A stretch of 64,000 nucleotides of DNA from Acidobacteriota bacterium. GTDB lineage: Bacteria; Acidobacteriota; UBA6911; RPQK01; CBDAPI01. Under the pieces are notes generated by a model. That model made no database searches. It had not been told where the DNA came from and saw only the letters and a program-made list of their open reading frames with translations. This document shows, piece by piece, positions 3,385 through 54,557 of this stretch. Position numbers and translations under genes: made by a program. The stretch's first letter is position 1. Each line of letters opens with the position of its first letter. The stretch covers positions 3,947,337 through 4,011,336 of the forward strand of contig OZ240092.1 of the NCBI GenBank assembly GCA_965197285.1, written 5' to 3'.

Positions 3385-5883
3385 TCACCCTTCAATCAAC
3401 TGTCTGACGGCCGCCTCCAGACGGGCTGCCAGCTGATCCGGAGTTTCTCCTTCTTCAAGTTGCAGAGGCTCTCCAAAGGCAACTCGAACCGGCCCCCGCC
3501 GCGGCCAGGAATCGTGAAGCGACAGGCTCTCGAACGTGCCCTGGATGCCGACCGGGACGACGGGGACATCCAGTTCTCGCGCCAGCAGGCCTACGCCGCT
3601 CTTGAAGGACTGCACTCGGCCGTCCGGGCTACGTTTCCCTTCCGGGTAGATCAGAATGCAAAGCCCTCCTTCCGCCAGTTCTCCGGCGTAGCGGAGGGTG
3701 TCCCCGAACCCACCCAGCCGCTGAGGCAAGGGAAACGCACCAAACAGGAGGCACGCCAGGGCGAACTTGCCGGCTGCCGAGAGTCTATCCCCAAGCGATG
3801 AGGTGGCGCTCCAGCAGGCCTCGAAGTATTCCTTCCTGACCGCCGGAGCGATCCGTAATCTCCAGCCCGCCGGCACCGCCGCGAGGACCGCAGCCGTGTC
3901 CAGGTGGCTGCAGTGATTGGCGGCAAACATGAGCGGGGGATCCAGGCTCCCGAGAGCACCCAGTCCGCGAATCTCGAGATCCATCAGGAGGCGAAAGAAC
4001 GGGCTCGCGACCAGATTCAGGAAGGCCCATCGCAACCCGCGGCCGGGAAGGCTCCGAGAGAGGCGGGGTACCCGGTTGTGACTCTCCTTCGCCCCCGAGC
4101 CCGGGCCGCCCGCCCCGGCTTTCCGGATCAAATCCTGAAGATCCTCCACGGTGCGAGCTTCCGAGATGGCCGTTTCCGTGATGCTGACACCAAAGCGGTC
4201 CTCCATCCGGCCCAGCAGCTCCACACGATCCAGTGAGGACAAACCGAGGTCTTCGTCCAGGCGACCGCCCTCGACAGCTCCATGGCCTGGAAGCAGTTGC
4301 TCCAGAGGGTCCTCGATCCGGCGGGGCCCGGAAGAAGCTCCGCGAATCTCTTCGGCCACGCGGTGACGTCTGATCTTCCCGGTGGACGAGGTTCGCGGAA
4401 AGTCGTCCTCCGACCACACCGACCAGCTTCGGATTCTTTGATGTTCCAGCAATTGCAGATTGGCGCAGGCAACGTGTTCACGCGCAGGCACCGATCCATC
4501 CTCAAGGATCAGCGCGGCGTGCACGATTTCCTCCCCGGGGCTGGGCCGTTGTGCCACCACGGCACTGTCGCGCACTCCCTCGAGCCGATTCAAAACGCCT
4601 TCGATGTCTTCCGGGTAGACATTCAGACCGGAGGAGGTCACGATGACGTCCTTTTTTCGACCCAGAAAGTAGAGACGTCCCTGCTCGTCCAGGCGGCCGA
4701 TGTCGCCGGTGTGGAGCCACCCCTCCCGGAGCAGTTTTTCCGTTCGGCCCCCGGGCCCGAGCCGCTCCGAGGCCACGCTGGGCCCACGCACCAGGATCTC
4801 TCCGTCGGGGGCCAGCTCGACTTCCTGGCCCGGGACCGCTTCACCCAGTGCTCCAGGCCGGGAACGGAAGGGATGATTCACGGCTACGACAGGGCTGCTC
4901 TCCGTGAGCCCGTAGCCTTGAACGACCACGAATCCCAGTTCTTTCCAGAACTCTTCGAGCTCCTTTTCAACCGCCGCCCCACCGACGACAAACGCCCAGA
5001 ACTTGAAACCGACTCTGCGGTGAAACGATCGGTGCCGCCACCACCGGGCCGCCACCGCGGCCCAGCCTCTGGTGCCCGCTGCAATCGGTGGCCGGGTGGC
5101 TCCGGCGATCTCGTCGTGCAGCCCCCTCAGCATCCTGGGAACCAGGCAGACGACCGACACCCGGTGGTCGCGAATCGTGCTCAACACCACCCTGGGGCTG
5201 TGGCGGCGGCTCAAGACGACCGATCCTCCCAGCAGAACAGGAATGAAGAGCCCGATGGCCTGGCCGAACATATGGCTGAGAGGCAGGAGGTTGAGGATTC
5301 TCACAGGCTGAAACGGCCATGCCATCCATCGGTAGCGCCGGATCTCGAGGCGAAAGGGTTCCAGGTTCGAGCAGATGTTGCGGTGGCGATGGATCACACC
5401 GGACGGTCGGCCGGTGGTCCCGGAGGTGAAAAGGATCTGAACGGGCTGCTCCGGATCGAGGCTCTGAGGCGACGGCGGCTCAGGGTAGCGGTCGCGGCTG
5501 ACTCGCGTGAGGCGCTCTCTATTCGGCCAGGGAGCCGCATCAGTTTCTTCGCCGTGCAAAAGCAGGTCGGCCCCAACCTGCTCGAGAACGCGCCCGATCA
5601 TCTCGACCGTGCTGCGACTGTCCAGGGGCACGACCTGGACTCCGCTGAGCACACACGCCCAGAAGGCAAAGACCCATTCAGGACGGTTTTCCGACCATAG
5701 AATCACGCGGCTCCCGGCGCCCAGATCCCGGGAGACAAGATATCCCTGGAAGACTCGGATTCGGTCCAGCAGCTCTCGATAGGAAAAATGAAAAGTCCGA
5801 AATCCGTTGTCGTAGCGCAGCGCCTCCCTGTTCCCCAGGCGCTCCATTTCCGGAACCAGGTCAGCCAGTGTGGACAGAGCCAT
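3385..5883 (-). CDS. tri-domain fusion: AMP-dependent acyl-CoA/acyl-ACP synthetase + acyl-carrier (PP-binding) domain + PlsC-type lysophospholipid acyltransferase
   Basis: FTSGTTGRPSGV AMP-binding motif; DLGLSSLDRVELLGRMEDRFG carrier motif with Ser; NHCSHLD (HX4D) and IYPEGKRSPDG LPLAT motifs. Confidence 0.85.
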   Translation of the reverse strand: MALSTLADLVPEMERLGNREALRYDNGFRTFHFSYRELLDRIRVFQGYLVSRDLGAGSRVILWSENRPEWVFAFWACVLSGVQVVPLDSRSTVEMIGRVLEQVGADLLLHGEETDAAPWPNRERLTRVSRDRYPEPPSPQSLDPEQPVQILFTSGTTGRPSGVIHRHRNICSNLEPFRLEIRRYRWMAWPFQPVRILNLLPLSHMFGQAIGLFIPVLLGGSVVLSRRHSPRVVLSTIRDHRVSVVCLVPRMLRGLHDEIAGATRPPIAAGTRGWAAVAARWWRHRSFHRRVGFKFWAFVVGGAAVEKELEEFWKELGFVVVQGYGLTESSPVVAVNHPFRSRPGALGEAVPGQEVELAPDGEILVRGPSVASERLGPGGRTEKLLREGWLHTGDIGRLDEQGRLYFLGRKKDVIVTSSGLNVYPEDIEGVLNRLEGVRDSAVVAQRPSPGEEIVHAALILEDGSVPAREHVACANLQLLEHQRIRSWSVWSEDDFPRTSSTGKIRRHRVAEEIRGASSGPRRIEDPLEQLLPGHGAVEGGRLDEDLGLSSLDRVELLGRMEDRFGVSITETAISEARTVEDLQDLIRKAGAGGPGSGAKESHNRVPRLSRSLPGRGLRWAFLNLVASPFFRLLMDLEIRGLGALGSLDPPLMFAANHCSHLDTAAVLAAVPAGWRLRIAPAVRKEYFEACWSATSSLGDRLSAAGKFALACLLFGAFPLPQRLGGFGDTLRYAGELAEGGLCILIYPEGKRSPDGRVQSFKSGVGLLARELDVPVVPVGIQGTFESLSLHDSWPRRGPVRVAFGEPLQLEEGETPDQLAARLEAAVRQLIEG

Positions 5884-9995: not shown

Positions 9996-10315
9996 AGGTT
10001 GAACGTTTCGTGAAGTGTTCAGTTTAACCGGCCGTGAACCCTTAACCTCTGGCGCGTGGTGCTCAAATCTCTGCCGCCCCTCCAGGGCTCCTGTGCTTTG
10101 CCGAGACTTCCGTGGGCTGACGCCCCCGGCTATTTTCTTGCGGCCGCTCCGCGGCCTGAAGAAAGCCCCCAAAGGGGGCGAAAGAGAATAGCCGGGGCCG
10201 CAAGGCCCCGGTAAAAGACGCATCATCCAAAGACAGCCCCCAAAGGGGGCGGCAGAAAAAAGCTGGATCGATTTTGGTTTGGGCAACACGCCTTTCAACT
10301 CGCTGAATAAAGCGG

Positions 10316-34630: not shown

Positions 34631-36014
34631 GAGCTATGGTCGGAAGTTGTGTATGAGAGGCGGCGTATCCTGAATCCGTGACCTTCAATCATGGATTCAC
34701 CCGGAGACCGAGAAGGAGGATACGCCTTGAAGAAAGATACTGTAGTTTCCATCGACGAACCAACCACAACGAAGGATGCCTTGACGGAAGTTCTGCGTGA
34801 AGGAGCACAGAAGCTTCTGGCTGAGGCGGTTCAAGCCGAGCTGGAGGAGCTGCTGGAAGAGTACGAGGGTCAGCGTGATGGCCAGGGCCGCAAACGTCTG
34901 GTTCGCAACGGCTACCTGCCGAAGCGTGAGATCCAGACAGGGATTGGAGGAATCCCGGTTCGGATTCCGCGGGTTCGAGACCGTGGAACTGGTGAGGAGT
35001 CGGAGGAGATCATCCGCTTTCGTTCCAGCCTGGTGCCTCCCTATCTGAGACGTAGCAAGAGCGTGGAGGAACTGCTGCCCCTGCTTTACCTGAAGGGGAT
35101 CTCCACAGGAGACTTCTCGGATGCGTTGAGTGCACTGTTGGGGCCGGATGCACCGGGACTGTCGGCCAAGACGATCAGCCGGCTCAAAGGCAAGTGGGTC
35201 AAGGATTATGAGAAGTGGAGGCTGCGTGATCTCTCCAACAAGCGCTACGTTTACGTTTGGGCCGATGGCGTGTATGCCAACGTTCGCTTTGACGACGGCC
35301 GGCTTTGCCTTCTGGTGCTGATCGGAGCCCGTGCGGACGGCAAAAAGGAGCTGATTGCCGTGGAAGATGGCTACCGGGAAAGTGAGCAATCCTGGTGGGA
35401 GTTGCTGCGGAATCTGCGCTCCAGAGGCCTGCACAGGGGACCAAAACTGGCGATTGGCGACGGAGCGCTCGGATTCTGGAAAGCCCTGGCCAAGATCTAC
35501 GGCAATACGCGACAGCAACGCTGCTGGATGCACAAGACGGGCAATGTGCTCAACTGTCTGCCCAAGGCCGTTCAGCCAAAAGCAAAGACGGCGCTGCATC
35601 AGATCTGGATGGCTGAAACTCGAGAGAATGCCTATAGGGCCTTTGACGAGTTCATTGCCACCTATCAGCTGAAGTTTCCAAAGGCCACGTCCTGCCTGGC
35701 CAAGGACCGGACAGAGTTGCTGGCTTTCTACGATTTTCCAGCCGAGCACTGGCCACATCTGAGAACCACAAATCCGATCGAGTCGACCTTCGCAACCGTG
35801 AGACTGCGAACGGCCAAGACTCGAGGCTGTTTGTCCAGGCAAACCATGCTGACGATGGTCTTCAAACTATGCAGAAGCGCTGAGAAAAGATGGCGCCGGC
35901 TACAAGGTTGCCGGCGCCTCGGAGAGGTCATAGAAAACGTCACATTTGTAAACGGAATCCGTGAAAACGAGGTCGCCGCCTAATGGGTCCGTACCCAACT
36001 TTTGACAATAACTC
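34631..36014 (+). mobile_element. IS256-family insertion sequence (1384 bp) flanked by 9-bp direct repeat CAGGACGAT
   Basis: imperfect about 25-bp terminal IRs (GAGCTATGGTCGGAAGTTGTGTATG / rc GAGTTATTGTCAAAAGTTGGGTACG); TSD at 34622-34630 and 36015-36023. Confidence 0.8.
34691..35983 (+). CDS. IS256-family (mutator-type) transposase
   Basis: DDE transposase with the IS256 C-terminal signature (…YDFPAEHWPHLRTTNPIESTFATVRLRT…). Confidence 0.9.
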   Translation: MDSPGDREGGYALKKDTVVSIDEPTTTKDALTEVLREGAQKLLAEAVQAELEELLEEYEGQRDGQGRKRLVRNGYLPKREIQTGIGGIPVRIPRVRDRGTGEESEEIIRFRSSLVPPYLRRSKSVEELLPLLYLKGISTGDFSDALSALLGPDAPGLSAKTISRLKGKWVKDYEKWRLRDLSNKRYVYVWADGVYANVRFDDGRLCLLVLIGARADGKKELIAVEDGYRESEQSWWELLRNLRSRGLHRGPKLAIGDGALGFWKALAKIYGNTRQQRCWMHKTGNVLNCLPKAVQPKAKTALHQIWMAETRENAYRAFDEFIATYQLKFPKATSCLAKDRTELLAFYDFPAEHWPHLRTTNPIESTFATVRLRTAKTRGCLSRQTMLTMVFKLCRSAEKRWRRLQGCRRLGEVIENVTFVNGIRENEVAA

Positions 36015-36500
36015 CAGGACGATGGGCAGGAGGTCGTTATTGACACGAATGTCTTTCTCTCAGGCGTCTTCTTTGGCGGGCTACCCTGCCGGATCTTGAG
36101 GGCCTGGCGTGACAGCAAGCTCACCCTGGTTTATTCCTTGGAAATTCTGGGTGAGTATAGAAGAACGGGTGTCAGACTGGCACGTCGGTTCGAAGGGCTA
36201 GATCTCGATCCATTTCTCGCGCTGGTGGTAACTGAAGGCAGGCTTTTCGCCTCCCCCGCCCTGGATGAAGACGTGTGTGAGGACCCTGCAGACGACAAGT
36301 TCTTCGCATGCGCGGTCGCGAGCGGCTGCAGGCTGATTGTTAGTGGTGACAAGCATCTGCTCAAGGCAACGGGATACACAGCATTGAAGTGCTCCGGCCT
36401 CGAGCATTCGTGGAGAGTTATCTCTAGCCCGGATTATGCAAGAGATCTAAATTCAAGTGAGATTTGGGCCCAGGAAAAAGGCCGTAGCTCTCTGATATAA
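36015..36500 (+). pseudogene. PIN-family toxin (TIGR00305-like toxin-antitoxin component PIN family). Its 5' end is split off by the IS256 insertion and its 3' end runs into the IS1380 terminal repeat
   Basis: VVIDTNVFLSGVFFGG...DPADDKFFACAVASGCRLIVSGDKHLL matches the family; no start codon after the IS; a candidate original TTG start lies at 34601 on the other side of the IS. Confidence 0.6.
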
Positions 36501-38080
36501 AAGGGTTTACAAAAACAAAGACCCTAAACAGGAGCTACGGCAATGTCAAAAACAGTCTGCCAGAATACCCTGCCATTTCACAGCCACAGAAAGATCACGA
36601 CGCGTTTTGATGGAGGGAGCCTCACTTCCGACGCAGGATGGTTGTTGTTTGGATCCCTGGATCGTCAACATCGATTGTGCGAGGGCTTCAGTTCGTGTAT
36701 TGCGGAAAGTCGAGACCGACGCTACGTTCGTCATGACCTGTTGAAGTTGATCCGACAACGAGTCTTGCAGATCGTGGCCGGCTACGAAGACTGTAACGAC
36801 GCCGATACGCTGCGCTCGGATCCGATGCTCAAGACAGTCTGTGATCAGTTGCCAGAGAGCGATCCCGATTTGGCCACCCAGCCGACTTTCTCCCGCCTGG
36901 AGAACTCCGTCACCAAGAAGGATCTGATGCGTCTGAGCCGGTGGCTGCCAGGCCGTTATGTGCGCTCCCTGAAGAAGAGACGTCCCAGCAAGATCATCCT
37001 GGATCTGGACAGTACCGACGACCACACTCACGGCCAACAGGAGTTCTCCTTCTACCACGGGTATTACCGAAACCACATTCTGCATCCTTTGCTGATCTTC
37101 GATGCCGACACGGGAGACCTGGTCTGTGCCGTGTTGAGACCTGGCAACAAGGGGGCTGCCTCTCACATCGTGCCCATTCTGAAGCGAGTCGTGGAGGCCA
37201 TCCGACAAGCAGTGGGGACGGATGTCGAGATTGAGATTCGGGCCGACAGCGGCTTTGCCACGCCTCGGCTCTACGAGTTCTGTGAATGTGAAGAGAATAA
37301 ACTCCAGTATGTCATTGGGTTAAGTCGAAACCCTCGCCTGCAGCGAGTGGTCGAGCCCCTGCTGGATTCGACTCGGCTGAGGTTCCTTGAGCTGGAGGAA
37401 AAACAGCGTCAGTTTGACGAGTTTCTTTATCGAGCCCACAGCTGGGATCGATCCCGTCGCGTCATTGTCAAAGTGGAGGTCGATCAGCGTGGCATCAATC
37501 GTCGCTTTGTAGTTACCAACCGGGACGATCTCTGCTCCCAATCACTTTATGACCACTACACAAACCGAGGGCAGACCGAGAACTTCATCAAGGCCTTCAA
37601 GAATCATCTGAGCATGGACCGACTCAGCTGTCATCGATTCCTGGCCAATCAGTTTCGACTCCTCCTGCATGCACTGGCTTACCAGATGTCCGTGCGCCTG
37701 CGCGACTATCTTCACGGAACCCCCTGGCACAAGCTCGAAATCGAAACCTTACGTCGTCGGGTCCTCAAGATCGGGGCCCGGATCCGACAAACCACTCGAC
37801 GCATCTGGGTCCATCTTTCCTCAGCCTTCCCCGAACAACCCCTCTTCCACCTCGTCTTGAGTCGCCTGAACTCCAGTTAGCTTTTCCCAGCTCCCCCGAA
37901 AAACCGCTTCCGACACTCATCCAGGCCCAGATCTGTCTGAAATTCACTCCCCAAACCACTCAAACGCCTCGCCAACCCATATTCTTCGCAAATCCGCCTG
38001 TCACACCTGCCCGCTTCCGAGTTGGGCCACTTCTCAAGTCGTTTTTCAACACCGAACTACGGTTCTTGCATAATCCGGGC
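36460..38080 (+). mobile_element. IS1380-family insertion sequence, copy a (about 1.6 kb; ends approximate)
   Basis: transposase 36543-37880; candidate IRs GCCCAGGAAAAAGGCCGTAGCTC / rc GCCCGGATTATGCAAGAACCGTAGTTC. Confidence 0.6.
36543..37880 (+). CDS. IS1380-family DDE transposase
   Basis: FDGGSLTSDAGWLLF, LDLDSTDDHTHGQQE, YHGYY, ADSGF, YTNRGQTENFIKAFKN signatures. Confidence 0.9.
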   Translation: MSKTVCQNTLPFHSHRKITTRFDGGSLTSDAGWLLFGSLDRQHRLCEGFSSCIAESRDRRYVRHDLLKLIRQRVLQIVAGYEDCNDADTLRSDPMLKTVCDQLPESDPDLATQPTFSRLENSVTKKDLMRLSRWLPGRYVRSLKKRRPSKIILDLDSTDDHTHGQQEFSFYHGYYRNHILHPLLIFDADTGDLVCAVLRPGNKGAASHIVPILKRVVEAIRQAVGTDVEIEIRADSGFATPRLYEFCECEENKLQYVIGLSRNPRLQRVVEPLLDSTRLRFLELEEKQRQFDEFLYRAHSWDRSRRVIVKVEVDQRGINRRFVVTNRDDLCSQSLYDHYTNRGQTENFIKAFKNHLSMDRLSCHRFLANQFRLLLHALAYQMSVRLRDYLHGTPWHKLEIETLRRRVLKIGARIRQTTRRIWVHLSSAFPEQPLFHLVLSRLNSS

Positions 38081-38082
38081 TA

Positions 38083-38523
38083 GTGGCTGACCGCACCGAG
38101 TTCTGGTGGAACGAGCGCAAGCCCGACGAGCCGATGCTGTGGGAAAGCAAGATCGAACTCGGCGAGAAGTTTTTTAACGAGATTATCCGCCACCCAGTGC
38201 CGCTGGACATGAATACCCTCAACGCGCTCAAACGCTGCTCCCTGGGTCTGGATCTCTACCTCTGGCTCGCCTACCGCACCTTCGCTCTCCGCGCTCCGCA
38301 ACGGCTCACCTGGAAGCAGTTGTACCGTCAGTTCGGCCCGCATCCGGCCAAGGCGAACGATCCCGCCACCGTCAAGAACTTCCGCCGCAAAATCCTACGG
38401 GAGTTGAAGAAGATCAAGATCGCGTGGCCGGACCTAAACTACACTACGGCTCCGGGGGTCTTGATTCTCTTGCCCTCGACGCCCATCATCCTTCCGGGGC
38501 AGCAGCTTTCACTCCCGGAGTAG
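38083..38523 (+). pseudogene. C-terminal fragment of a plasmid replication initiator (RepA_C domain); N-terminal half missing
   Basis: VPLDMNTLNALKRCSLGLDLYLWLAYRTF...TWKQLYRQFG...NFRRKILRELKKIKIAWPDL matches the RepA_C family; begins (GTG) right at the IS1380 end, preceded by an in-frame TAG. Confidence 0.6.
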
Positions 38524-39757: not shown

Positions 39758-42700
39758 TTGTCGCGGGTTGATGGGAGGCTTGATGATGGACTTTGCTGGA
39801 ACCGAAGGGACTCAGGGACTCGGCGAATGCAGCACTTCTGTGTTGGCCGGCCGGGTTGGGCGACGGTGCGGCCCGGCGCGGCCCATCCGGCTGGCGACTC
39901 GGGTGGCCGAAGCCGGCGCGGGCCGGTTGCGCCGCTTGTTGCCCTTGCCGGGGCGGCAGCGGCGGCCCCCGCCCTCGCCCAGACCCCCTCGCACTGCAAC
40001 CCGTCGGACCGCAACGAACTCTGGTGCGCGACCCTGACGGTGGAGCTAGACCACCGGTTCGCGGATACTTGGGCGGATATTATCGGGTTTGTCGCCCCCG
40101 ATTCCGGCACGAGTTCTCCTCCTTACGGGAGCGTCGCGCCCGGGCGCACCTTCACTTGGCGCGGGAACTCGTTCAGAGTGGACGTTCTCCGTGTCCGGGG
40201 GATGGGGCAGTTGATATTCAGGTTCGGCCCGGACCGTCTCGGGTCCGGCGTTTTCGCGCTGGAGGTCGGGACGGGAGCGAGCAAGCGAAGCTTCCCAATT
40301 CTCCTTAACGGTTCAAGGTTCCAACAATGGTCCGACACGGGCCTGGCCGGGGCCTGGTCGGCGGGCGACAGCGTCCCGGTCAAGCTCGTCCGCATCGCCA
40401 CCGTGCCGGGCAGGCCGGCCTCCCTGCACGCGGTCCCGAACGGGCAGACGCAGATCGACCTCACCTGGGGCGCCCCCGAGGATGGCGGCGCGGATATCAC
40501 GGGCTACAGGATCGAGGTGTCCACCGACGGAGGCCTCACGTTCAGGGAGCTCGTGGCCACCACGTCCAGCCGGAGCACGACCTACAGCCACACCGGTCTC
40601 ACGCCCGGCAGGACCTATCACTACAAGGTCAAGGCGATCAACTCCGTCGGCACGGGCCCCAGATCGTTGATTCCCAGCGCCACCGCCGGCGCCCCCCCGC
40701 ACAACGTCAACGCGACTGCGCAGTGCGACGCGACCGACAGCAACGAACTGTGGTGCGCCACCCCCTGACGGTGGGCAAACATTCTGCCTTCTTTGGGCTT
40801 GGCAACGTTGCCGGCAGAGTACTTGGCAGTGCCCAACCCGCGTCCTTCACCCTGGACTCGCAGGAAATCCATGTCAGGAAACTGATGTACATTGCCGGAT
40901 CGCGGGCCCTCGATTTCGAAATCTCTCACGGTCTGGGCTCCGGCCACTTCTCGCTGGAGATCGGCACGGGTCGGATCAAGAAGTCCTTCCCCATCGTGAA
41001 CCGGGGAACCCGAACGGTGTTCCGCTTTTCCTTGCAAGGCCTCAACTGGCAGCTCGTCGATACGGCCCCCGTCACGCTCAAGCGCGCCGGCCGCCCGGGC
41101 AGGCCGACCTCGCTGCGCGCGACCGCGAACGGGCCGAGCCAGGTCGACCTCACGTGGAACGCCCCGGAGGATGACGGCGCCGGCCGGATTACGGGCTACA
41201 AGATCGAGTGGGAGGAGCAGGAAGTTTATTTTGCGAAAACCCTCGTGGAAGACACGGGCAACGCGAAGACGACCTATGGCCACACCAGCCAAGGCCCCAT
41301 CCCTCTCAAAGGGGGCGAACTTTACTTTTACCGGGTCTCGGCGATCAACTCCGCCGGAACGGGTCCCGCAACCGAATGGGTGGAGATTGTCGCCAACACC
41401 GCGAGCCCGGCGCTCGGGCACTGCAACCCGTCCGACCCGGACGAGTTCTGGTGCGCCACCATGACGGTCGACACGTGGAGTAGTACGAACGCCAATTGGT
41501 TCGGTTTCCAGACTTATGGGTCAGACCACGGCGACCTATCCCCCAGGATGTTTGCCTGGCAGGGGACCAGCTACACGGTCAGTCAGTTGATCTTCGAACA
41601 AGCCAAACAGGACCTAGATTTCATAGAGATACGGTTCCGTATAAATCCCCTAGGGGCGGCGACGTTTTATGAACAGGACTACGTGCTGCATGTCGGAAAC
41701 CAGCGGTTCCCGTTTCAAGCTGCCAGTGGCTTTCCGGGGGCAGGTCAACGCTATCACGAATGGCTGGATACGGACGTCGACTTCCTGGGGATGTTTTCGA
41801 CGGGCGACCAGGTCATCGTGAAGCTGACGCGCACCAATCACCCGCCAACGTCACGTGACAACCGGGTCTACATCGAGGAGAACACGGGCCATAACTTCTC
41901 GCGTCCGGAGTTTCCATTCTCCGATGAAGACCAGGGCGACCGGCTGGAACGCGTCAGGATCGTGACCGTGCCCGCGGCGAGGAAAGGCACCCTGACCCTC
42001 GACGGCTCTGCGGTGAGCGCCGGCGACACGGTGACGCCCAGTCAACTGGAGGCTGGCCTTCTCAGGTACTCGCCGCCCCCATGGCGGTTTGGCCGGAACC
42101 TCGCGAGATTTGCCTTCAGAGTGAGCGACGGCAAGGACGAGAGCGCGGCAGACTACACGCAGGCGATCAGTGTGACCCGCTCCTCCGGTGGCTACCACGT
42201 CGGGGGTGGCGGCAAGCTTTCGCAGAAATTCACCACGGGCCCCAATCCGGCCGGCTACCGGCTGGAGGACGTCACGGTCGGGATCATACAGGGGCCGCCC
42301 GCCGTGCCGGCGTTCTCGATCTACAGGCCGGTCTCCCGCCTCCAGTCGAAACCGGGGACCGAAAAGGTCCTCGACTTGACCGGCAGCGTGGCCACCACGG
42401 GGGACCAGACCTTCACGCCCGCACCGGGCACGCCCGACAGCGCGCGGATCCTCGAACCCGATACCAGCTATCACGTGGTGTTCGAGGCGGCCTCGAACTC
42501 CCCCGCAAGTGTGCGGCTGCAGCAGAGCACGGCCCCCCCGACCTGAGCAGAGTCCCGGAGGGATGGTCCTTGCAGAACTGGCATTACTATTACGACCGCA
42601 CCCCCCCGAATACCAGCGTCCCGTGGGCCTGGGGCATCAGCACCAGCGGCATCGTCCTGATCGGGATCACCGCCACTCCGGGGGGGGGCGCCGCAGATCG

Positions 42701-43939
42701 CGGTCGATCCGCCGATCGTCGAGGGCGCGCCCCGCCTCAGCGGCGCAGCCGACGGCGGAACCTGGCGGGAGGGCGAGACCGTCGAGGTGGCGCTCACCTT
42801 CAGCGAGGCGGTGGACGTGGACACGACGGACGGCAGGCCGTCGGTCGGCCTCGCGCTCGGGGGACACGCCGCCGCTCCCCGCCGACTATCTGCGGGGCAG
42901 CGGCACGACGGAGTTGGTCTTCGGCTACACGCTGGTCGATGGCGACGGCGACCACAACTCCGTGCTGGTGATGGCGAACAGCCTGACGCTCGATGGCGGG
43001 ACCATCCGCAGCCAGGAGAAGCAGGCGGACGCGCTGCTGGACCACAACGGCGCGGGGACACAGGGCGGCGGCGGCCCTCTCAACGCCGCGCCGACGGCAA
43101 GCTTCCAGGACGTACCGGAGCACCATGACGGGGAGACGGCCTTCACCGTGGGGCTGCGCTTCAGCGGTGAGCCCGCGGGGCTCGATGCCAAGCGGGACGC
43201 GGCCTCGGTGCTCGAGGTGACGGGCGGGACCGTGACGGGTGTGCGGCGGACGGAGACGGGCGCGAGCCCGGTCTGGGAGGTGACGGTCGCGCCCTCGGGC
43301 ATCGGCGACGTGACGGTGCGGCTGCCGGCGCGGGCCTGCGGCGAGGCGCACGCGGCGTGCATCGGCGGGCGGGCGCTGGCCGAGGCCCTGGAGGCGGCGG
43401 TGCCGGGCCTGGCGATGACGGCAGGCTTCACGCAGGCGCCGGATGCGCATGACGGCTCGGGCGCCTTCGAGCTGCACCTTGCGTTCAGCCACGAGCCGAA
43501 GGGCTTCAGCTACCGCACGGTGAGGGATGCGCTGTTCGATATTGAGGGCGGGCGCATCGAGCGCGTGTGGCGCAACCCGCGCGGGCAGAACCGCCAGTGG
43601 GGCATCGAGGTGGTCCCGGCGGGGGATGGCGCGGTCACGCTCACCGCGCGGGCCACAACCAGCTGCGCGGCGCAGCATGCCGCCTGCGACGACGCGGGGA
43701 GGAAGTTCGCGGGAGACCTGGTGCTCACGATCGAAGGTCTCGACGCCGGCGGGGAGCAGACCGAAGATCCGCCCGACCCGATCACCGCGCGCTGGTCACA
43801 GGCGCCCGCCGAGCACGACGGGACCAATGCGTTTAAGATCCGCTTCCATCTGAGCGCGTCACCGGGAAGCCTGAGCTACGTGACGGTCCGGGATTCGCTC
43901 TTCGCCGTGACGGGGGGCAGCATTGACCTTGCCCCCTAA
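39758..43939 (+). pseudogene. giant secreted repeat protein (adhesin-like). It has an N-terminal signal/TAT-like peptide, three ~130-aa Cys-motif modules interleaved with two fibronectin type III domains (third module alone), an Ig-like repeat and three ~105-aa C-terminal tandem repeats. It is interrupted by at least four frameshifts at G/C homopolymers (plus an in-frame TGA at 42544 after a C7 run) and truncated at 43923 by IS3
   Basis: ORFs 39758-40768, 40327-42546, 42787-43128 and 42509-43939 join into one protein if single-base indels are assumed at C5 (about 40753), C7 (about 42535), G9 (42680-42688) and G5 (about 42855); FN3 signature (TWxAPxDDGGxxITGYxI...YxYxVxAxNxxGxG); local GC about 70%. 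Confidence 0.6.
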
Positions 43940-43990
43940 AACGGGTCCAAGTTGAATGTTAGGATTTTCGGTTTTAGGAAGGAGGCAAGG

Positions 43991-44269
43991 ATGGCACGGA
44001 AGCGGTTTACGGCAGAACAAATCATCATGAAGCTGCGTGAGGCAGAGGCAGGTCTAGCCCAAGGACAGACGGTGGGCCAGATGTGCAAACAGATTGGGGT
44101 GACCGAGCAGACCTACTACCGGTGGCGCAAGGAGTACGGAGGGCTTCGACTGAATCAGGCCAAGCGGTTGAAGGTGTTGGAGAAGGAGAATGCCCGGTTG
44201 AAGAAGCTAGTGGCAGATCTGTCTTTGGACAAGCAGATCCTAAAGGAAGTTTCCTCGGGAAACTTCTAG
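43991..44269 (+). CDS. IS3-family transposase OrfA (HTH plus leucine zipper)
   Basis: MARKRFTAEQIIMKLREAE...[21 protein letters not shown]; RBS GGAAGGAGG upstream. Confidence 0.8.
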   Translation: MARKRFTAEQIIMKLREAEAGLAQGQTVGQMCKQIGVTEQTYYRWRKEYGGLRLNQAKRLKVLEKENARLKKLVADLSLDKQILKEVSSGNF

Positions 44270-45162
44270 GCCCGGCGAAGAGGAGACGCGCAGTGGTGTG
44301 GGTGAGGGAGAGATTGGGAGCAGAGCGCGTCTCCGAACGTCGGGCCTGCCAAGTGCTGGGACAGGCTCGATCGACCCAGCGAAGGGAAAGGCATATCCCC
44401 GATGATGAGGCTCGATTGGTGGCTGAGGTGGTGGAGTTGGCCACGCACTACGGGCGATACGGCTACCGACGGATCACGGCCATGCTTCGTTGGGAAGGGT
44501 GGAAAGTGAATCACAAGCGGGTGGAGAGGTTGTGGAGACAGGAGGGGCTGAAAGTCCCGTCCAGACAGCCGAAACGAAGGAGACTGTGGCTTCATGATGG
44601 ATCCTGCGTTCGGTTACGAGCGGCTCACAAGGATCACGTCTGGAGCTATGACTTCGTGCATGAGCGAACCCATGACGGAAGGGCCTTTCGATTATTAACC
44701 CTACTGGATGAATACACCCGGGAGTGTCTGGCCATTGAGGTTCAACGACAGATGAATCACCAGGACGTGTTGGATCGATTGGCGGAGTTGTTCGTGGATC
44801 GGGGAGTGCCTGAATACATTCGGTCCGATAACGGGTCGGAGTTTACGGCTCAGGCGGTTCGGGACTGGCTGAAGGCTGTTGGGGTGAGGACCTTACACAT
44901 CGAGCCCGGCAGCCCCTGGGAGAATGGATATGTGGAGAGCTTCAACGGAAAACTGCGGGATGAACTGCTGAACGTAGAAGTCTTCGACACGTTGTGGGAA
45001 GCGAAGGTGTTGGCCGAGAGATGGCGCAGGGAGTACAACCAGCGACGGCCTCACAGCGCCTTGGCCTATCGGCCGCCGGCGCCGGAGGCCAGATTACCCA
45101 GGTCCCAGGCCCAGAGTTCTATACCATGGAGTGGACTTCAAATGGTCCCAGGTCTAACTTAG
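44083..45162 (+). CDS. IS3-family transposase OrfB (integrase/DDE core), presumably expressed as OrfAB by -1 frameshifting around 44240-44270
   Basis: DDE core with [12 protein letters not shown] and [16 protein letters not shown] motifs. Confidence 0.8.
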   Translation: MQTDWGDRADLLPVAQGVRRASTESGQAVEGVGEGECPVEEASGRSVFGQADPKGSFLGKLLGPAKRRRAVVWVRERLGAERVSERRACQVLGQARSTQRRERHIPDDEARLVAEVVELATHYGRYGYRRITAMLRWEGWKVNHKRVERLWRQEGLKVPSRQPKRRRLWLHDGSCVRLRAAHKDHVWSYDFVHERTHDGRAFRLLTLLDEYTRECLAIEVQRQMNHQDVLDRLAELFVDRGVPEYIRSDNGSEFTAQAVRDWLKAVGVRTLHIEPGSPWENGYVESFNGKLRDELLNVEVFDTLWEAKVLAERWRREYNQRRPHSALAYRPPAPEARLPRSQAQSSIPWSGLQMVPGLT

Positions 45163-45191
45163 AGAGTGGACTCGTTCCTGGGGGCAGGTCA

Positions 45192-45611
45192 ATGGTGACA
45201 TCGACGGGTCTTCTGAGAGGCTCCACCCGATTCCAGTTGATCGGCGAGGAAACAGGGACTTTGGTGGAGGATGTGGGGATTCCCAACGCCAGAACCGGAA
45301 GCAGGTTCCTGACCGCTTACCGCAAGAAGGATGAATTGGCTTTTGCGATCGCCAACCCGACCGAAGACCAGATTGAAGTCAAGGTTCTGGTCTACGACAG
45401 CGAGGATCCGGGCCAGCCGGCGGGGGGATTTCTGATCTTCGTCCCGGGTCGCGGCCAGGTGGCCAGGTTCTTGAGTCAGTTCGTACAGACCGATTTCGAA
45501 GAAGGACACCTGATTGTCGAGAGCGACGGCGGGGAGGAGTTTGCCCTGTCAGGTCTGATTACCTTGGACGGACTTTTCGTTTCGGCGCAGTCGATTTCAC
45601 TGCTTCAGTAA
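45192..45611 (+). CDS. hypothetical protein, possibly 5'-truncated (ATG abuts the IS3 right end)
   Basis: 139-aa ORF immediately after IS3; no motif recognised; GC lower than the adhesin region. Confidence 0.35.
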   Translation: MVTSTGLLRGSTRFQLIGEETGTLVEDVGIPNARTGSRFLTAYRKKDELAFAIANPTEDQIEVKVLVYDSEDPGQPAGGFLIFVPGRGQVARFLSQFVQTDFEEGHLIVESDGGEEFALSGLITLDGLFVSAQSISLLQ

Positions 45612-50612: not shown

Positions 50613-50819
50613 GCCCAACCGGCTGGCACAACAGGCCCCTGCGAGACGGACCGCTATCAGCGCTTCGAGGCCACACGGCGCGTGACCTTGCCCCCTAAAA
50701 CGGGTCCAAGTTGAATGTTAGGATTTTCGGTTTTAGGAAGGAGGCAAGGATGGCACGGAAGCGGTTTACGGCAGAACAAATCATCATGAAGCTGCGTGAG
50801 GCAGAGGCAGGTCTAGCCC

Positions 50820-52552
50820 GCATAGATCACCGATTTGGAAATGAAGGTGATTTTGGCAGGCCGGAACGGTTTTCTGAGAGTTTCGCTATCGATCCGGTCC
50901 AGGTCGAGTGATGCGGTGGTGTGGAGGGTCGTGAATGGAGCGTTTTTCGGGCTCGGAAGAGGGTGACGGAACGGATTCAGGCAGAGCTCGGCCTGAGCGA
51001 TGGAACGATTTCGTTTTTGGGGCGTTTGATCGGGACAGACCTCAGCAGCGCAGAGGAATGGCCTGGAGGTTTCGAACGACGGCAGCGAAGACCTCGCTGT
51101 AGGGATAGGCTTCCGACATGGAGATCCAGACGTGGCGGACCGTGAGGCGGACCTGGGCGCCGATCTTGAGGAGCTTCAAGCGAATCGTCTGACACTGAGC
51201 GCGAGCCAGGGGGGTCTGCTTCAGTCCGAGACGACGCAAGGCGTGCATGAGCATGTAGGCGGCGGAGGACAGATACAGCCGGAGTTGATTGGCGCGCATC
51301 GTTGCCGCGCTGGTCCGGTCGGCGAACAGATCCAACTGCTGTTCTTTTATGCGGTTCTCCATGTCGCCCCGCGCACAGTAGAAGTCTTCGTAGAGCGCGC
51401 GGGCCCCCAGGCGTTCCGGCGACAGGGAGGTGACGATGAATCGGGGATTGGCGCCTTTCTCCAGGAACTCGGCCTTGCCGACGACGCGTCGCTCCGAGGT
51501 CCAACTGTGGCGAGTCCGGTAGCGGAAATCCTGGAACACCCGCGCCGGTCGCCCGGTGGCGTTGAACTCGGCTTCGGCCTGAGTCATCGCTTCGGCGATC
51601 TCTGACTTGAGCCGATCATTGTTGGCCAACCCCATCACGTAATCCACGTGATGGTCTTCACACCAGCGGAGCAAGTCATCCCGGCAAAAGCCAGAGTCGG
51701 CCCGGATGACGATCGAGACCTCCGGCCAGCTCTGCCGAATCCGGCCGACGATCCGTTCCAGTTCCTCCGCCGATCCCGCGGCCCCATCGATATTGGAACA
51801 CCGCAACCGGGCGCACAGCAGATGCTCCCCCGAGAAGATGTACAGCGGGAGATAACAGTAGTGGCGGTAGTAACCGTGAAAGAACCGGCCTTCCTGCTGG
51901 CCATGGATCGGGTCGTCGGTCGCATCCAGATCCAGCACGATCTCCTCGGGCGCCGATTCGTGGGACTCCACGAAGGCATCCACCATCCAGCCGTCGATCC
52001 GGTCCGGGTCCATCGCGATCTTCTTGTACCGCTCCTGCTCATCGACCTCGGCGCCGGTCAACTCCAACCGGTTCAGCGTACACCTGCCCGCCAGCGCCTT
52101 CCCCCGATCTGAGGCCTGCCGCCGCCGCTCCCCCAACGGATCGGCCTTATTCACCGCCACCGCCAGCATCGGATCGGTGCGCAACTGATCATGATCGTTC
52201 AGATCCTCGTACCCCAGACAGAGTCCGTAGATGCGCTGCCCCAACAACTCCTCGACCGTGTGTTCGATCAACCGCGGATCCCGGTGATCCCTGAAGCACG
52301 CGGTCAGTCCGGCAACGAGACCCGTCCGCTGCTCGACCTCGCGTAACAGCAGCACCCCTGCATCGGAGGTGATCTTCCCGCCGTCGAACCGCGCCTTCAC
52401 TTTGCGTTGAAATAGTCCGTGAAATTCGAACCTGGCTTGTTTACACTCTGTTCTCATAAGGGCCGCCTCCGTTTGGCTTTGAAGTCTTTCATTCAAAACG
52501 CTTTATACCAAACAGGGCGGCCTTTTGAGGTCCTATCGGTGAGAAATGGCGG
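50820..52552 (-). mobile_element. IS1380-family insertion sequence, copy b (a different member from copy a), nested inside IS3 copy 2
   Basis: IRs GCATAGATCACCGAT / rc CCGCCATTTCTCACCGAT; target CTAGCCC present on both sides (TSD 4-7 bp, exact ends ambiguous). Confidence 0.65.
51042..52496 (-). CDS. IS1380-family DDE transposase
   Basis: FDGGKITSDAGVLLL, LDLDATDDPIHGQQE, FHGYY, ADSGF, YCARGDMENRIKE signatures. Confidence 0.9.
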   Translation of the reverse strand: MNERLQSQTEAALMRTECKQARFEFHGLFQRKVKARFDGGKITSDAGVLLLREVEQRTGLVAGLTACFRDHRDPRLIEHTVEELLGQRIYGLCLGYEDLNDHDQLRTDPMLAVAVNKADPLGERRRQASDRGKALAGRCTLNRLELTGAEVDEQERYKKIAMDPDRIDGWMVDAFVESHESAPEEIVLDLDATDDPIHGQQEGRFFHGYYRHYCYLPLYIFSGEHLLCARLRCSNIDGAAGSAEELERIVGRIRQSWPEVSIVIRADSGFCRDDLLRWCEDHHVDYVMGLANNDRLKSEIAEAMTQAEAEFNATGRPARVFQDFRYRTRHSWTSERRVVGKAEFLEKGANPRFIVTSLSPERLGARALYEDFYCARGDMENRIKEQQLDLFADRTSAATMRANQLRLYLSSAAYMLMHALRRLGLKQTPLARAQCQTIRLKLLKIGAQVRLTVRHVWISMSEAYPYSEVFAAVVRNLQAIPLRC

Positions 52553-53661
52553 CTAGCCCAAGGACAGACGGTGGGCCAGGTGTGCAAACAGATTGGGGTG
52601 ACCGAGCAGACCTACTACCGGTGGCGCAAGGAGTACGGAGGGCTTCGACTGAATCAGGCCAAGCGGTTGAAGGTGTTGGAGAAGGAGAATGCCCGGTTGA
52701 AGAAGCTAGTGGCAGATCTGTCTTTGGACAAGCAGATCCTAAAGGAAGTTTCCTCGGGAAACTTCTAGGCCCGGCGAAGAGGAGACGCGCAGTGGTGTGG
52801 GTGAGGGAGAGATTGGGAGCAGAGCGCGTCTCCGAACGTCGGGCCTGCCAAGTGCTGGGACAGGCTCGATCGACCCAGCGAAGGGAAAGGCATATCCCCG
52901 ATGATGAGGCTCGATTGGTGGCTGAGATGGTGGAGTTGGCCACGCACTACGGGCGATACGGCTACCGACGGATCACGGCCATGCTTCGTTGGGAAGGGTG
53001 GAAAGTGAATCACAAGCGGGTGGAGAGGTTGTGGAGACAGGAGGGGCTGAAAGTCCCGTCCAGACAGCCGAAACGAAGGAGACTGTGGCTTCATGATGGA
53101 TCCTGCGTTCGGTTACGAGCGGCTCACAAGGATCACGTCTGGAGCTATGACTTCGTGCATGAGCGAACCCATGACGGAAGGGCCTTTCGATTATTAACCC
53201 TACTGGATGAATACACCCGGGAGTGTCTGGCCATTGAGGTTCAACGACAGATGAATCACCAGGACGTGTTGGATCGATTGGCGGAGTTGTTCGTGGATCG
53301 GGGAGTGCCTGAATACATTCGGTCCGATAACGGGTCGGAGTTTACGGCTCAGGCGGTTCGGGACTGGCTGAAGGCTGTTGGGGTGAGGACCTTATACATC
53401 GAGCCCGGCAGCCCCTGGGAGAATGGATATGTGGAGAGCTTCAACGGAAAACTGCGGGATGAACTGCTGAACGTAGAAGTCTTCGACACGTTGTGGGAAG
53501 CGAAGGTGTTGGCCGAGAGATGGCGCAGGGAGTACAACCAGCGACGGCCTCACAGCGCCTTGGCCTATCGGCCGCCGGCGCCGGAGGCCAGATTACCCAG
53601 GTCCCAGGCCCAGAGTTCTATACCATGGAGTGGACTTCAAATGGTCCCAGGTCTAACTTAG
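52546..53661 (+). CDS. IS3-family transposase OrfB (copy 2)
   Basis: near-identical to 44083-45162. Confidence 0.8.
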
Positions 53662-53687
53662 AGAGTGGACTCGTTCCTGGGGGCAGG

Positions 53688-54557
53688 TCAGCGACTGCCT
53701 CCGAGCTTCTGTCGAAACCGCCGGGCCGCATGCGCCAGGTCGATTCCGGCCAGCACCAGGCGGGTCTGGAGCGGGTGGGCCCTGGGAGCGTAGTGTTTGG
53801 CATGGAAGATCTTCATGGCGTCAAAAAAATGCCTGGTGTTCACCGCCGTGTCCTGGTCTGAGCTGCGACTCTTCAGGTGGGTAACTGTGGCCCCGGCATA
53901 GTACTCCACCAGCCAGCCCGCCTGGAGGGCCCGATAGCAGAAATCCAGGTCCTCGCCATAGAGGAAAAACCCTTCATCCAGGAGCCCGATCTTCTCGGTC
54001 AGTTCTCGGCGAAACATCAGAAACGAACCGGAGACCGCTTCCACCGGCTGCGTCTTGTTTTCGTCCAGAGAGGTCAGGTTGTAGGCTCCGAACTCCCGAC
54101 TGCGGGGAAACAGTCGGCTCAGCCCGAGAAAGCGATAGATCGAATTTCGGACCGTGGGTATGGAGCGCTGGCAGGCCAGCTGGAGACTCCCGTCGGGATT
54201 CAGGATCCGGCATCCCACTACACCCGTCTGCGGGCGGCTCCGAAGGTAGTCCAGGGTCTTCTCGATGGCGTTGTCGTGAATGATAACGTCCGGATTCAGG
54301 AGCAGGAAAAAGGGGGCAGTAGCGTGACGGATTCCACGATTGCAGGCTTTGGCAAACCCCTCGTTGTGCCGATTGAGGAGAAGCACGGGTGAAGAACAGC
54401 GGAGTTCGTTTTCCAGCCGGGACTGGTCAGAGGAAGCGTTGTCCACGACAACCACTTGGATCTGGTCTTCTTGATTCGCCCTTCGTATGCCGGACAGACA
54501 CTGAAGAAGGTCGGCAGTCGAGTTGTAGTTCACGATGATGACGGATAGTTGCATCAC
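53688..54557 (-). CDS. GT2-family glycosyltransferase; its stop codon is supplied by the IS3 terminal TCA (last about 6 native codons replaced)
   Basis: VIIVNYNSTADLLQCL...VVDNASSD GT2 N-terminus; reconstructing the pre-insertion sequence gives ...LGGSRRVASKR*. Confidence 0.8.
   Translation of the reverse strand: MMQLSVIIVNYNSTADLLQCLSGIRRANQEDQIQVVVVDNASSDQSRLENELRCSSPVLLLNRHNEGFAKACNRGIRHATAPFFLLLNPDVIIHDNAIEKTLDYLRSRPQTGVVGCRILNPDGSLQLACQRSIPTVRNSIYRFLGLSRLFPRSREFGAYNLTSLDENKTQPVEAVSGSFLMFRRELTEKIGLLDEGFFLYGEDLDFCYRALQAGWLVEYYAGATVTHLKSRSSDQDTAVNTRHFFDAMKIFHAKHYAPRAHPLQTRLVLAGIDLAHAARRFRQKLGGSR

What the first reader, a model, noticed from the sequence alone, without database searches (positions are those of the whole stretch)
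42690..43939. C-terminal tandem repeats of the adhesin: an Ig-like GSGT…LNGGTI-type unit followed by three ~105-aa repeats with a conserved Cys pair, cut by IS3
After the G9 tract the protein shows …GETVEVALTFSEAVDVDTTDGRPSVGLALG DTPPLPADYLRGSGTTELVFGYTLVDGDGDHNSVLVMANSLTLDGGTIRSQEKQADA…. This resembles the Ig-like tandem repeats of large bacterial exoproteins. Three further repeats follow with the pattern …P..HDG..AF...L.FS.EP….SY.TVRD.LF.Φ.GG.I..V.R…….W.Φ.V.P.G.G.VTΦ.ΦPA..C….A.C…GR. The third copy is truncated after …TGGSIDL by the IS3 left end. The paired Cys near the end of each unit is unusual for Ig-like repeats.
Basis: partly seen in the sequence, partly recalled or inferred. Interest (0 to 1): 0.5.

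Follow-up and report, generated by a model that had tools for sequence, protein, structure and literature searches.

The report
IS-cut adhesin pseudogene, unnamed disulfide repeat
The repeats are real: they are the dead, transposon-truncated tail of a giant surface-protein gene in an uncultured Acidobacteriota genome, and the ~108-residue repeat is a common Ig-like domain with an invariant cysteine pair that neither Pfam nor NCBIfam matches.

Summary
Window 42688-43923 (+) encodes one ~125-aa Ig-like-looking unit. It is followed by two complete copies and one half copy of a 108-aa unit (43091-43408, 43415-43738, 43781-43923). An IS3-family element starts at exactly 43924 and cuts the third copy at profile position ~49 of 108.

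The gene is a pseudogene. It has four frameshifts (40761-65, 42533-39, 42680-88, 42859-63) in addition to the IS truncation. The IS copy has no target duplication and unrelated DNA follows it, so the 3' part was lost.

Intact relatives continue with further units, then Calx-beta, a helical linker and a large C-terminal outer-membrane beta-barrel. Other relatives end in T9SS-like tails. The locus itself is ordinary; the unannotated domain family is of modest interest.

The parts
39827..43923 (+). Whole adhesin-type pseudogene. It consists of a signal-like N-terminus, three H/Q-C-x9-C-A-T modules (two followed by fn3), a cadherin-like stretch, a choice-of-anchor R domain, an Ig-like unit and the 108-aa units. 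It is read through four frame changes.
   Evidence: Three-frame translation. Pfam fn3, plus Cadherin_3 below threshold. NCBIfam NF041539, 41 bits against a cutoff of 30. Reconstruction and BLASTP to P0117, P0118 and P0162.
40761..40765 (+). Frameshift 1, in a C5 run (frame 2 to frame 1).
   Evidence: The reading ...ELWCATP|(L)TVGKH continues in the other frame.
42533..42539 (+). Frameshift 2, at a C7 run. One base (the A before the run) is missing relative to the 94%-identical copy in L002.
   Evidence: alignment. P0013 reads through this site.
42680..42688 (+). Frameshift 3, at a G9 run. L002 has GGTGGGGGGGT here, so the window is 2 nt shorter.
42688..43090 (+). ~125-aa unit (WxEGETVEVxLTFSEAV...GSGTTELVFGYTL...LNGGTIRS) plus a short Gly-rich linker. 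It is probably Ig-like and is interrupted by frameshift 4.
   Evidence: Alignment A4 of 16 homologous units has 69% mean column identity. Pfam Big_12 is sub-threshold in 4 of 16 members. There is no PDB sequence hit.
42859..42863 (+). Frameshift 4. The window has G5 where L002 has G4 (+1).
43091..43408 (+). 108-aa unit, copy 1 (HDG at 43124; Cys codons at 43337 and 43358).
   Evidence: hmmsearch 137.6 bits, profile positions 1-108.
43415..43738 (+). 108-aa unit, copy 2 (HDG at 43448; Cys codons at 43664 and 43685).
   Evidence: hmmsearch 134.6 bits, profile positions 1-108. AlphaFold model of this copy has pLDDT 95.7.
43739..43780 (+). Acidic, Pro-rich linker (LDAGGEQTEDPPDP).
43781..43923 (+). 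108-aa unit, copy 3. Only profile positions 1 to ~48 remain; the Cys pair is lost.
   Evidence: hmmsearch 56.8 bits, profile positions 1-49.
43924..45191 (+). IS3-family insertion sequence, 1268 bp, with ends TGACCTTGCCCCC...GGGGGCAGGTCA. orfA is at 43991-44269 and orfB at 44293-45162. The flanks CAT|IS|ATG show no 3-bp target duplication.
   Evidence: Second copy at 50683-50819 plus 52547-53690, with a GCG/GCG duplication. Pfam HTH_Tnp_1 and rve on the called genes.
45192..45611 (+). Unrelated 5'-truncated ORF abutting the IS right end. It shows that the adhesin 3' part is not simply displaced by the IS.
   Evidence: Sequence does not continue the unit. No Pfam hit. GC falls from 0.70 to 0.58. 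There is no further unit anywhere in the window.

Best explanation
The region is the 3' remnant of a horizontally acquired, now dead gene for a large multi-domain cell-surface protein in an uncultured Acidobacteriota genome.

What was encoded. An intact ancestor would have been exported by a Sec-type signal peptide. It would have displayed a string of beta-sandwich modules: C-x9-C modules with fn3, a cadherin-like stretch, a choice-of-anchor R domain, one ~125-aa Ig-like unit, then three or more copies of a 108-aa unit. These were probably followed by Calx-beta and a C-terminal outer-membrane beta-barrel that anchors or translocates the passenger.

The 108-aa unit. It is a self-contained Ig-like beta-sandwich. 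Its invariant C-x6-C lies in the long loop before the last strand. I infer that it forms a short-range disulfide that staples that loop. The invariant His-Asp-Gly lies in the loop before the second strand; its role is unknown and may be structural or ion-binding. Such units most likely act as rigid spacer or adhesive modules. A six-residue Cys spacing is the kind of disulfide that barrel-mediated (type V-like) export tolerates.

What happened in this genome. The gene acquired four frameshifts. An IS3-family element sits inside the third unit. That IS copy lacks a target duplication and is followed by unrelated DNA, so an IS-mediated deletion or rearrangement removed about 59 residues of unit 3 and everything downstream. 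The locus makes no functional adhesin.

Shown: the repeats, their conservation, the predicted fold, the frameshifts, the IS boundary, the absence of the 3' part from the window, and the architectures of relatives.
Inferred: the disulfide, the adhesive or spacer role, the ancestral C-terminal barrel of this particular gene, and horizontal acquisition.
For: Repeats and family:
- establish the repeats in the window.
- 67 distinct full units from 69 close homologues have H12, F18, P68, C84 and C91 invariant.
- In 531 distinct units from 149 representatives, the Cys pair is present in 526, both Cys are absent in 4, and only one unit has a single Cys. Spacing is 6 residues in 510, and 526 units have exactly 2 Cys.
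- Family size: 5,798 representatives at E<=1e-3 and 1,769 at E<=1e-30.

Pseudogene:
- Frame path.
- Indels relative to L002 are -1, -2 and +1, and two of them remove non-homopolymer bases.
- P0013 reads through the three sites it covers.
- The same four shifts occur in an ENA contig with 2 mismatches and 0 gaps over 9 kb.
- Other long ORFs in the window are intact although the window holds 100 G/C runs of length 5.
- dN/dS against L002 is 0.85.

IS.

Lost part:
- Relatives P0162, P0170 and P0113 (36-47% identity over 500-800 aa) and P0110/P0118 (58-60% identity over ~400 aa) continue into Calx-beta. Most then carry a PQAWxARFGRTVAEQ linker and a ~430-480-aa domain ending ...RW.
- 26 of 149 representatives end this way.
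- P0163 passes TIGR01414 autotrans_barl, 24.5 bits against a cutoff of 16.

Foreign composition: GC3 is 0.91 here against 0.63-0.74 in housekeeping genes of the window. The gene is flanked by transposases and a RepA_C gene.

Disulfide tolerance in autotransporter passengers is limited to closely spaced cysteines (PMC3546941, discussion).

Host taxon: the UPF0182 protein is 91-93% identical to Acidobacteriota MAGs, and an Acido-Lenti-1 RNA lies at 10110-10157.
Against: - The disulfide is inferred from co-conservation and location only.
- The frameshifts could in principle be consensus errors of a low-coverage (11x) long-read assembly. The ENA contig and the window may not be fully independent data.
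- dN/dS near 1 is also seen in surface proteins under diversifying selection, and it is based on only 86 substitutions.
- The ancestral C-terminus of this particular gene is inferred from relatives at 36-60% identity. Other family members end in FlgD_ig/Por_Secre_tail domains or a PEP-CTERM-like tail instead.
- The barrel in relatives gives no Pfam Autotransporter hit. It models with 16 strands and is closest to Omp85/TpsB-type barrels rather than the 12-stranded type Va barrels.
Confidence: 0.8

Rival explanations
1. The frameshifts are assembly (homopolymer) errors. Under this reading the gene is an intact ORF up to the IS and still makes a secreted, C-terminally truncated protein of about 1,360 residues.
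For: All four shifts lie in or beside C/G runs. The contig naming (ctg..._11x_l) indicates about 11x coverage. Several homologues from similar assemblies also have out-of-frame tails.
Against: Two of the three sites comparable with L002 differ by loss of A or T bases, not by run length. Identical shifts occur in a second assembly that differs at 2 positions. The remaining long genes of the 64-kb window are unbroken despite 100 G/C runs of 5 and other runs of 7-8. Even if repaired, the protein lacks any C-terminal anchor or translocator.
Confidence: 0.1
2. The gene is a phase-variable contingency locus that is switched on and off by slippage in the C7 and G9 tracts.
For: Long homopolymers (C7 three times, G9 once) are concentrated in this gene: 4 of the 10 runs of 7 or more in the window lie here. 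Surface adhesins are classic phase-variable genes (general knowledge).
Against: Four independent corrections would be needed at once. Two lesions are not simple tract-length changes. The IS truncation with loss of the 3' part is irreversible. dN/dS is about 0.85.
Confidence: 0.03
3. The invariant Cys pair, possibly together with the invariant His of the HDG motif, forms a metal- or ligand-binding site rather than a structural disulfide.
For: His12 (98%), Cys84 and Cys91 (99%) are the most conserved polar residues of the unit. His plus two Cys is a common metal-ligand set (general knowledge).
Against: The proteins are exported to an oxidising compartment. The two Cys are co-present or co-absent and are 6 residues apart in one loop. 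In the predicted topology His12 sits in the loop before strand 2 and the Cys pair in the loop before the last strand; in a canonical Ig sandwich these loops lie at opposite ends. That last point is inference, because the coordinates were not inspected.
Confidence: 0.1
4. The gene naturally ends near here, and the IS inserted just past or at the true C-terminus.
For: Some database homologues end after two units (P0006 and P0013).
Against: Those homologues are themselves cut by mobile elements or frame changes. The third unit here stops at profile position 49 of 108, before its Cys pair. The longer relatives compared (P0110, P0117, P0118, P0162, P0170, P0113) continue into Calx-beta and, in most, further domains.
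Confidence: 0.02

Closest known systems
Bacterial Ig-like repeat domains of surface adhesins and S-layer proteins (invasin/intimin Big_1, SbsC domains, Big_12, filamin-type folds)
Type V (autotransporter-like) surface proteins
   Same: In relatives, a signal peptide, a long passenger and a C-terminal outer-membrane beta-barrel ending in an aromatic residue. One relative passes TIGR01414. Cysteines in the passenger occur only as closely spaced pairs (C-x6-C and C-x9-C), which matches the known tolerance of autotransporter export (PMC3546941).
'Choice-of-anchor' surface proteins (NCBIfam naming, e.g. NF041539 choice-of-anchor R)
   Same: The pseudogene contains a choice-of-anchor R domain (41 bits against a cutoff of 30). 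Family members end in different sorting or anchor modules: a barrel, FlgD_ig/Por_Secre_tail, or a PEP-CTERM-like tail.
   Different: The 108-aa unit itself is not one of the named choice-of-anchor domains.
IS3-family insertion sequences
   Same: 1268 bp with TG...CA ends and imperfect inverted repeats. orfA carries HTH_Tnp_1 and orfB carries rve. The second copy has a 3-bp target duplication.
   Different: The copy that cuts the gene has no target duplication and unrelated flanks, which indicates a secondary rearrangement.

Membership tests
Unnamed 108-aa HDG / C-x6-C unit family (defined here from homologues) | Full-length match to the family profile (108 positions) | tested here: met
   Units 1 and 2 match profile positions 1-108 at 137.6 and 134.6 bits. 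Unit 3 matches only positions 1-49. The profile included the window's own copies, but units 1 and 2 also match homologues at up to 72% identity.
Unnamed 108-aa HDG / C-x6-C unit family (defined here from homologues) | Invariant His12-(Asp13)-Gly14, Trp62, Pro68 and Cys84-x6-Cys91 | tested here: met
   All are present in units 1 and 2. Unit 3 keeps HDG but lacks the part that holds W, P and the Cys pair.
Ig-like beta-sandwich fold | Two-sheet sandwich of about 7 strands with structural similarity to solved Ig-like domains | tested here: met
   [not shown]
Pfam Big_12 (PF19078), for the first ~125-aa unit | Score above the Pfam gathering threshold (27 bits) | tested here: not met
   No hit for the window's repaired unit. 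4 of 16 homologous units give sub-threshold hits, best E = 0.0035.
Disulfide-bonded domain | The two Cys within bonding distance and oxidised | not testable with these tools
   Only co-conservation (526 with both, 4 with neither, 1 with one) and the loop location.
IS3 family | orfA (HTH) and orfB (DDE/rve) in overlapping frames, with TG...CA terminal inverted repeats | tested here: met
IS3 family | 3-bp direct target duplication flanking a simple insertion | tested here: not met
   Copy 1 has CAT|...|ATG. Copy 2 has GCG|...|GCG. This argues for a rearrangement at copy 1, not against IS3 membership.
Type Va autotransporter (for the ancestral intact gene) | C-terminal 12-stranded barrel matching PF03797 or TIGR01414 | tested here: inconclusive
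   [not shown]
Calx-beta (PF03160) | Pfam hit downstream of the units | tested here: not met
   None in the window. It is present in relatives directly after the last unit.

The most novel reading that the evidence does not exclude
The 108-aa unit defines a large domain family that neither Pfam nor NCBIfam matches: at least 5,800 clusters at 50% identity, with up to 25 copies per protein. Its near-invariant His and C-x6-C may do more than stabilise the fold, for example by binding a metal or ligand or by sensing redox state. The family is the hallmark passenger module of a class of surface proteins, known almost only from uncultured bacteria, that use an atypically large (about 16-stranded) C-terminal outer-membrane barrel. 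That would be a variant of type V-like secretion not covered by current models.
Probability: 0.15. Interest if true: 0.55.

Novelty: new variant of a known kind. Interest (0 to 1): 0.3.

Why it matters
The locus itself is a decayed, IS-disrupted surface-protein gene, which is routine in IS-rich genomes. The more useful result concerns the repeat. It belongs to a very abundant extracellular domain family that neither Pfam nor NCBIfam matches, it has no solved relative, and the few members that carry a source name are all labelled hypothetical. A family model, with its diagnostic H-x-G...W...P...C-x6-C signature, would annotate thousands of giant proteins from uncultured Acidobacteriota, Gammaproteobacteria and other bacteria. 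The strict pairing and close spacing of cysteines in these passengers is a natural data set for the rule that only short-range disulfides pass through barrel-mediated export. The large C-terminal barrel of the intact relatives also deserves a structural look.

Tried and rejected
- The first Pfam/NCBIfam scan of 42692-42862 used the wrong frame. I repeated it with the repaired unit and again found no hit.
- Self-BLAST of the 358-aa tail listed only the identity hit. Direct pairwise comparisons then gave significant E-values.
- The PDB sequence-profile search with the unit alignment gave only chance hits with E above 0.2. The same search with the Ig-like unit alignment gave none.
With the window protein it found nothing in GTDB representative genomes, so the source genome is not in that collection. 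I used the second scan for the UPF0182 protein to place the organism.
- A second homologous-protein search with the unit alignment returned only 9 short fragments and added nothing.
- The listing of cluster members on 20 representatives gave only two further names, both 'hypothetical protein'.
- The afdb50 fold library was unavailable.
- The NCBIfam scan of the last 330 aa of 15 barrel-bearing relatives gave no hits.
- A sponge-symbiont origin was considered because of the style of the MAG names. It is not supported by anything retrieved: the related single-cell genomes AH-259 come from Atlantis Massif sediment. I dropped the idea.
- The antisense ORF 42800-43678 is rejected as a high-GC artefact: GC3 is 0.91 on the + frame and the homologues are all on +.
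Full report
**What is at the coordinates**

From 42688 to 42861 it runs in frame 1 (APQIAVDPP...GETVEVALTFSEAVDVDTTDGRPSVGLALG). From 42863 it continues in frame 2 (DTPPLPADYLRGSGTTELVFGYTL...LDGGTIRS...) through to 43923.

The frame-2 stretch holds HDG motifs at 43124, 43448 and 43814. It holds exactly four Cys codons, at 43337/43358 and 43664/43685. Unit 1 and unit 2 are 38% identical (E = 2e-18). The partial unit 3 is 48% identical to the start of unit 2 (E = 9e-15). A profile built from homologues finds three and only three hits in a six-frame translation of the whole 64-kb window: 43091-43408, 43415-43738 and 43781-43927. The last covers profile positions 1-49 of 108. GC3 of this frame is 0.91, which confirms the coding strand. 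The long antisense ORF 42800-43678 is a high-GC artefact.

**The IS boundary**

A 137-bp stretch starting at 43924 is 100% identical to a second site at 50683, and 44047-45191 matches 52548-53690. The element is therefore 43924-45191, with ends TGACCTTGCCCCC...GGGGGCAGGTCA. Its genes carry HTH_Tnp_1 and rve domains, so it belongs to the IS3 family. The native gene ends at 43923, after ...VTGGS and two bases of an Ile codon. The remaining 'DLAP-stop' is read from the IS.

The second copy is flanked by GCG on both sides, a normal 3-bp duplication. It is itself split by an IS4-type element. The copy in the gene is flanked by CAT and ATG, which is no duplication. What follows the IS (45192-45611) is an unrelated 5'-truncated ORF with no Pfam hit, and GC drops from 0.70 to 0.58. 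No further unit exists in the window. So the 3' part was removed by a secondary IS-mediated event, not merely displaced.

**The gene is a pseudogene**

Reading upstream, the same gene starts near 39827 with a signal-like segment (...LVALAGAAAAAPALAQ). It needs four frame changes:
- at a C5 run, 40761-40765
- at a C7 run, 42533-42539
- at a G9 run, 42680-42688
- at a G5 run, 42859-42863

A 94%-identical copy from another metagenome (L002, protein P0013) reads straight through the last three sites. Relative to it the window has lost an A before the C7 run, has lost two T's (GGTGGGGGGGT to G9) and has gained one G. Two of these are not simple run-length miscalls.

The identical lesions are present in an ENA contig that differs from the window at 2 of 9001 positions with no gaps. 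Other long genes in the window are intact (UPF0182 at 908 aa, an 832-aa AMP-binding/acyltransferase protein, lactate permease, TrkA/TrkH), even though the window holds 100 G/C runs of five and several of 7-8. dN/dS between the window and L002 copies is 0.85, from 25 synonymous and 61 non-synonymous changes. I conclude real decay, with about 10% left for assembly error.

L002's copy is itself cut at both ends. Another close homologue, P0006, on a 74x contig, stops after two units beside IS and relaxase genes. This gene family often sits in mobile-element-rich DNA and is often broken.

**What the 108-aa unit is**

A search with the window's 358-aa tail found 69 homologues holding 67 distinct full-length units. 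H12, F18, P68, C84 and C91 are invariant, and D13, G14, G45 and W62 are at 97-99%.

An exhaustive profile search of 1.84 billion cluster representatives found 5,798 proteins at E<=1e-3, 4,505 at E<=1e-10 and 1,769 at E<=1e-30. Many are 1,000-6,500 aa long, with up to 25 units. In 531 distinct units from the best 149 proteins:
- both Cys are present in 526, both absent in 4, and only one unit has a single Cys
- 510 have exactly six residues between the two Cys
- 526 contain exactly two Cys in total
- His12 is 98% conserved, Gly14 96% and Pro68 98%

Pfam and NCBIfam give nothing for the units, either in the window or in 16 multi-unit relatives scanned. A PDB sequence-profile search is also empty. 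The few named members are 'hypothetical protein' from MAGs of Acidobacteria, Gammaproteobacteria and Immundisolibacterales.

The unit is therefore an Ig-like domain of a family that the Pfam, NCBIfam and PDB searches used here do not recognise. From co-conservation, spacing and export to an oxidising compartment, I infer that C84-C91 is a loop-stapling disulfide. This could not be measured. The HDG motif's role is open.

**The first unit**

The ~125-aa WxEGETVEVxLTFSEAV...GSGTTELVFGYTL...LNGGTIRS unit is well conserved among relatives (69% mean column identity). It is unrelated to the 108-aa unit at profile level. It has no PDB relative by sequence. It reaches Pfam Big_12 only below threshold, in 4 of 16 relatives. 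'Ig-like' is plausible but not demonstrated.

**What the IS event removed**

The relatives closest in architecture are P0118 and P0110 (58-60% identity over ~400 aa) and P0162, P0170, P0113 and P0111 (36-48% over 500-830 aa). They continue after two or three units into Calx-beta. P0110, P0162, P0170 and P0113 then have a PQAWxARFGRTVAEQ helix-like linker. P0162, P0170 and P0113 end with a 430-480-aa domain closing in ...RW.

Other family members end instead in FlgD_ig/Por_Secre_tail (T9SS-like) domains or a PEP-CTERM-like tail. That fits the choice-of-anchor R domain found just upstream in the window's gene.

The most likely loss here is about 59 residues of unit 3, then Calx-beta, the linker and an outer-membrane barrel, roughly 700 residues in total. 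This is inferred from relatives.

Every Cys in the passenger occurs in closely spaced pairs: C-x6-C in the units and C-x9-C in the N-terminal modules. That agrees with the published consensus that autotransporter export tolerates only disulfides between closely spaced cysteines (PMC3546941).

**Organism and origin**

The window's UPF0182 protein is 91-93% identical to proteins of uncultured Acidobacteriota MAGs. An Acido-Lenti-1 RNA lies at 10110-10157. The pseudogene is compositionally foreign: GC is 0.70 at 42-44 kb against 0.55-0.63 elsewhere, and GC3 is 0.91 against 0.63-0.74. It lies between transposase genes and a RepA_C gene. Horizontal acquisition is therefore likely (inference).

**Verdict**

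- the gene is already dead from four frameshifts
- the repeats are internal, not C-terminal, in intact relatives
- the Cys-pair unit is a member of a very large but unannotated Ig-like domain family

The locus is ordinary. The domain family, and the atypical barrel of its intact relatives, are of modest interest.

Noticed in passing
window ~39990-41480: The N-terminal half of the same pseudogene has three ~150-aa modules, each opening with H/Q-C-x9-C-A-T (HCNPSDRNELWCATLTV, QCDATDSNELWCATP.TV, HCNPSDPDEFWCATMTV). The first two are followed by fn3. The modules hit no Pfam family. Relative P0117 has four or more of them.
   Followed up: partly
window ~42190-42522: An NCBIfam choice-of-anchor R domain (NF041539, 41 bits against a cutoff of 30) lies just upstream of the repeats. 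Relatives of the gene end in at least three different anchor types: a beta-barrel, FlgD_ig/Por_Secre_tail, or a PEP-CTERM-like tail.
   Followed up: partly
window 10110-10157 (+): Rfam Acido-Lenti-1 sRNA (RF01687), 39 bits against a gathering score of 37. This is consistent with the Acidobacteriota assignment.
   Followed up: no
window 50683-53690: The second copy of the same IS3-family element has a GCG target duplication. It is itself interrupted at 50820-52546 by an IS4/DDE_Tnp_1-type element (ORF 51042-52496, minus strand).
   Followed up: partly
window 34691-38523: A cluster of mobile-element genes lies upstream of the pseudogene: Transposase_mut (34691-35983), DDE_Tnp_1_4 (36543-37880) and a RepA_C gene (38083-38523). 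This suggests an integrated plasmid or island remnant.
   Followed up: no
window 45192-45611 (+): A 5'-truncated ORF abuts the IS right end (…AFAIANPTEDQIEVKVLVYDSEDPGQP…). It has no Pfam hit and is the other casualty of the IS-mediated rearrangement.
   Followed up: partly
L002 9900-11700; L083 8001-9857: Close homologues in other metagenome contigs are also fragments. The L002 copy is cut at both ends. The L083 copy (74x coverage) stops after two units next to TrwC relaxase, NikA-like, IS66 and IS21 genes. Several database homologues (P0002, P0003, P0017) carry out-of-frame Arg-rich heads or tails. Whether this is widespread decay or assembly error was not resolved.
   Followed up: partly
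[not shown]
   Followed up: partly
window 3385-5883 (-): An 832-aa protein combines AMP-binding, PP-binding and Acyltransferase domains. It resembles a fused acyl-ACP synthetase/acyltransferase. I did not examine it further.
   Followed up: no
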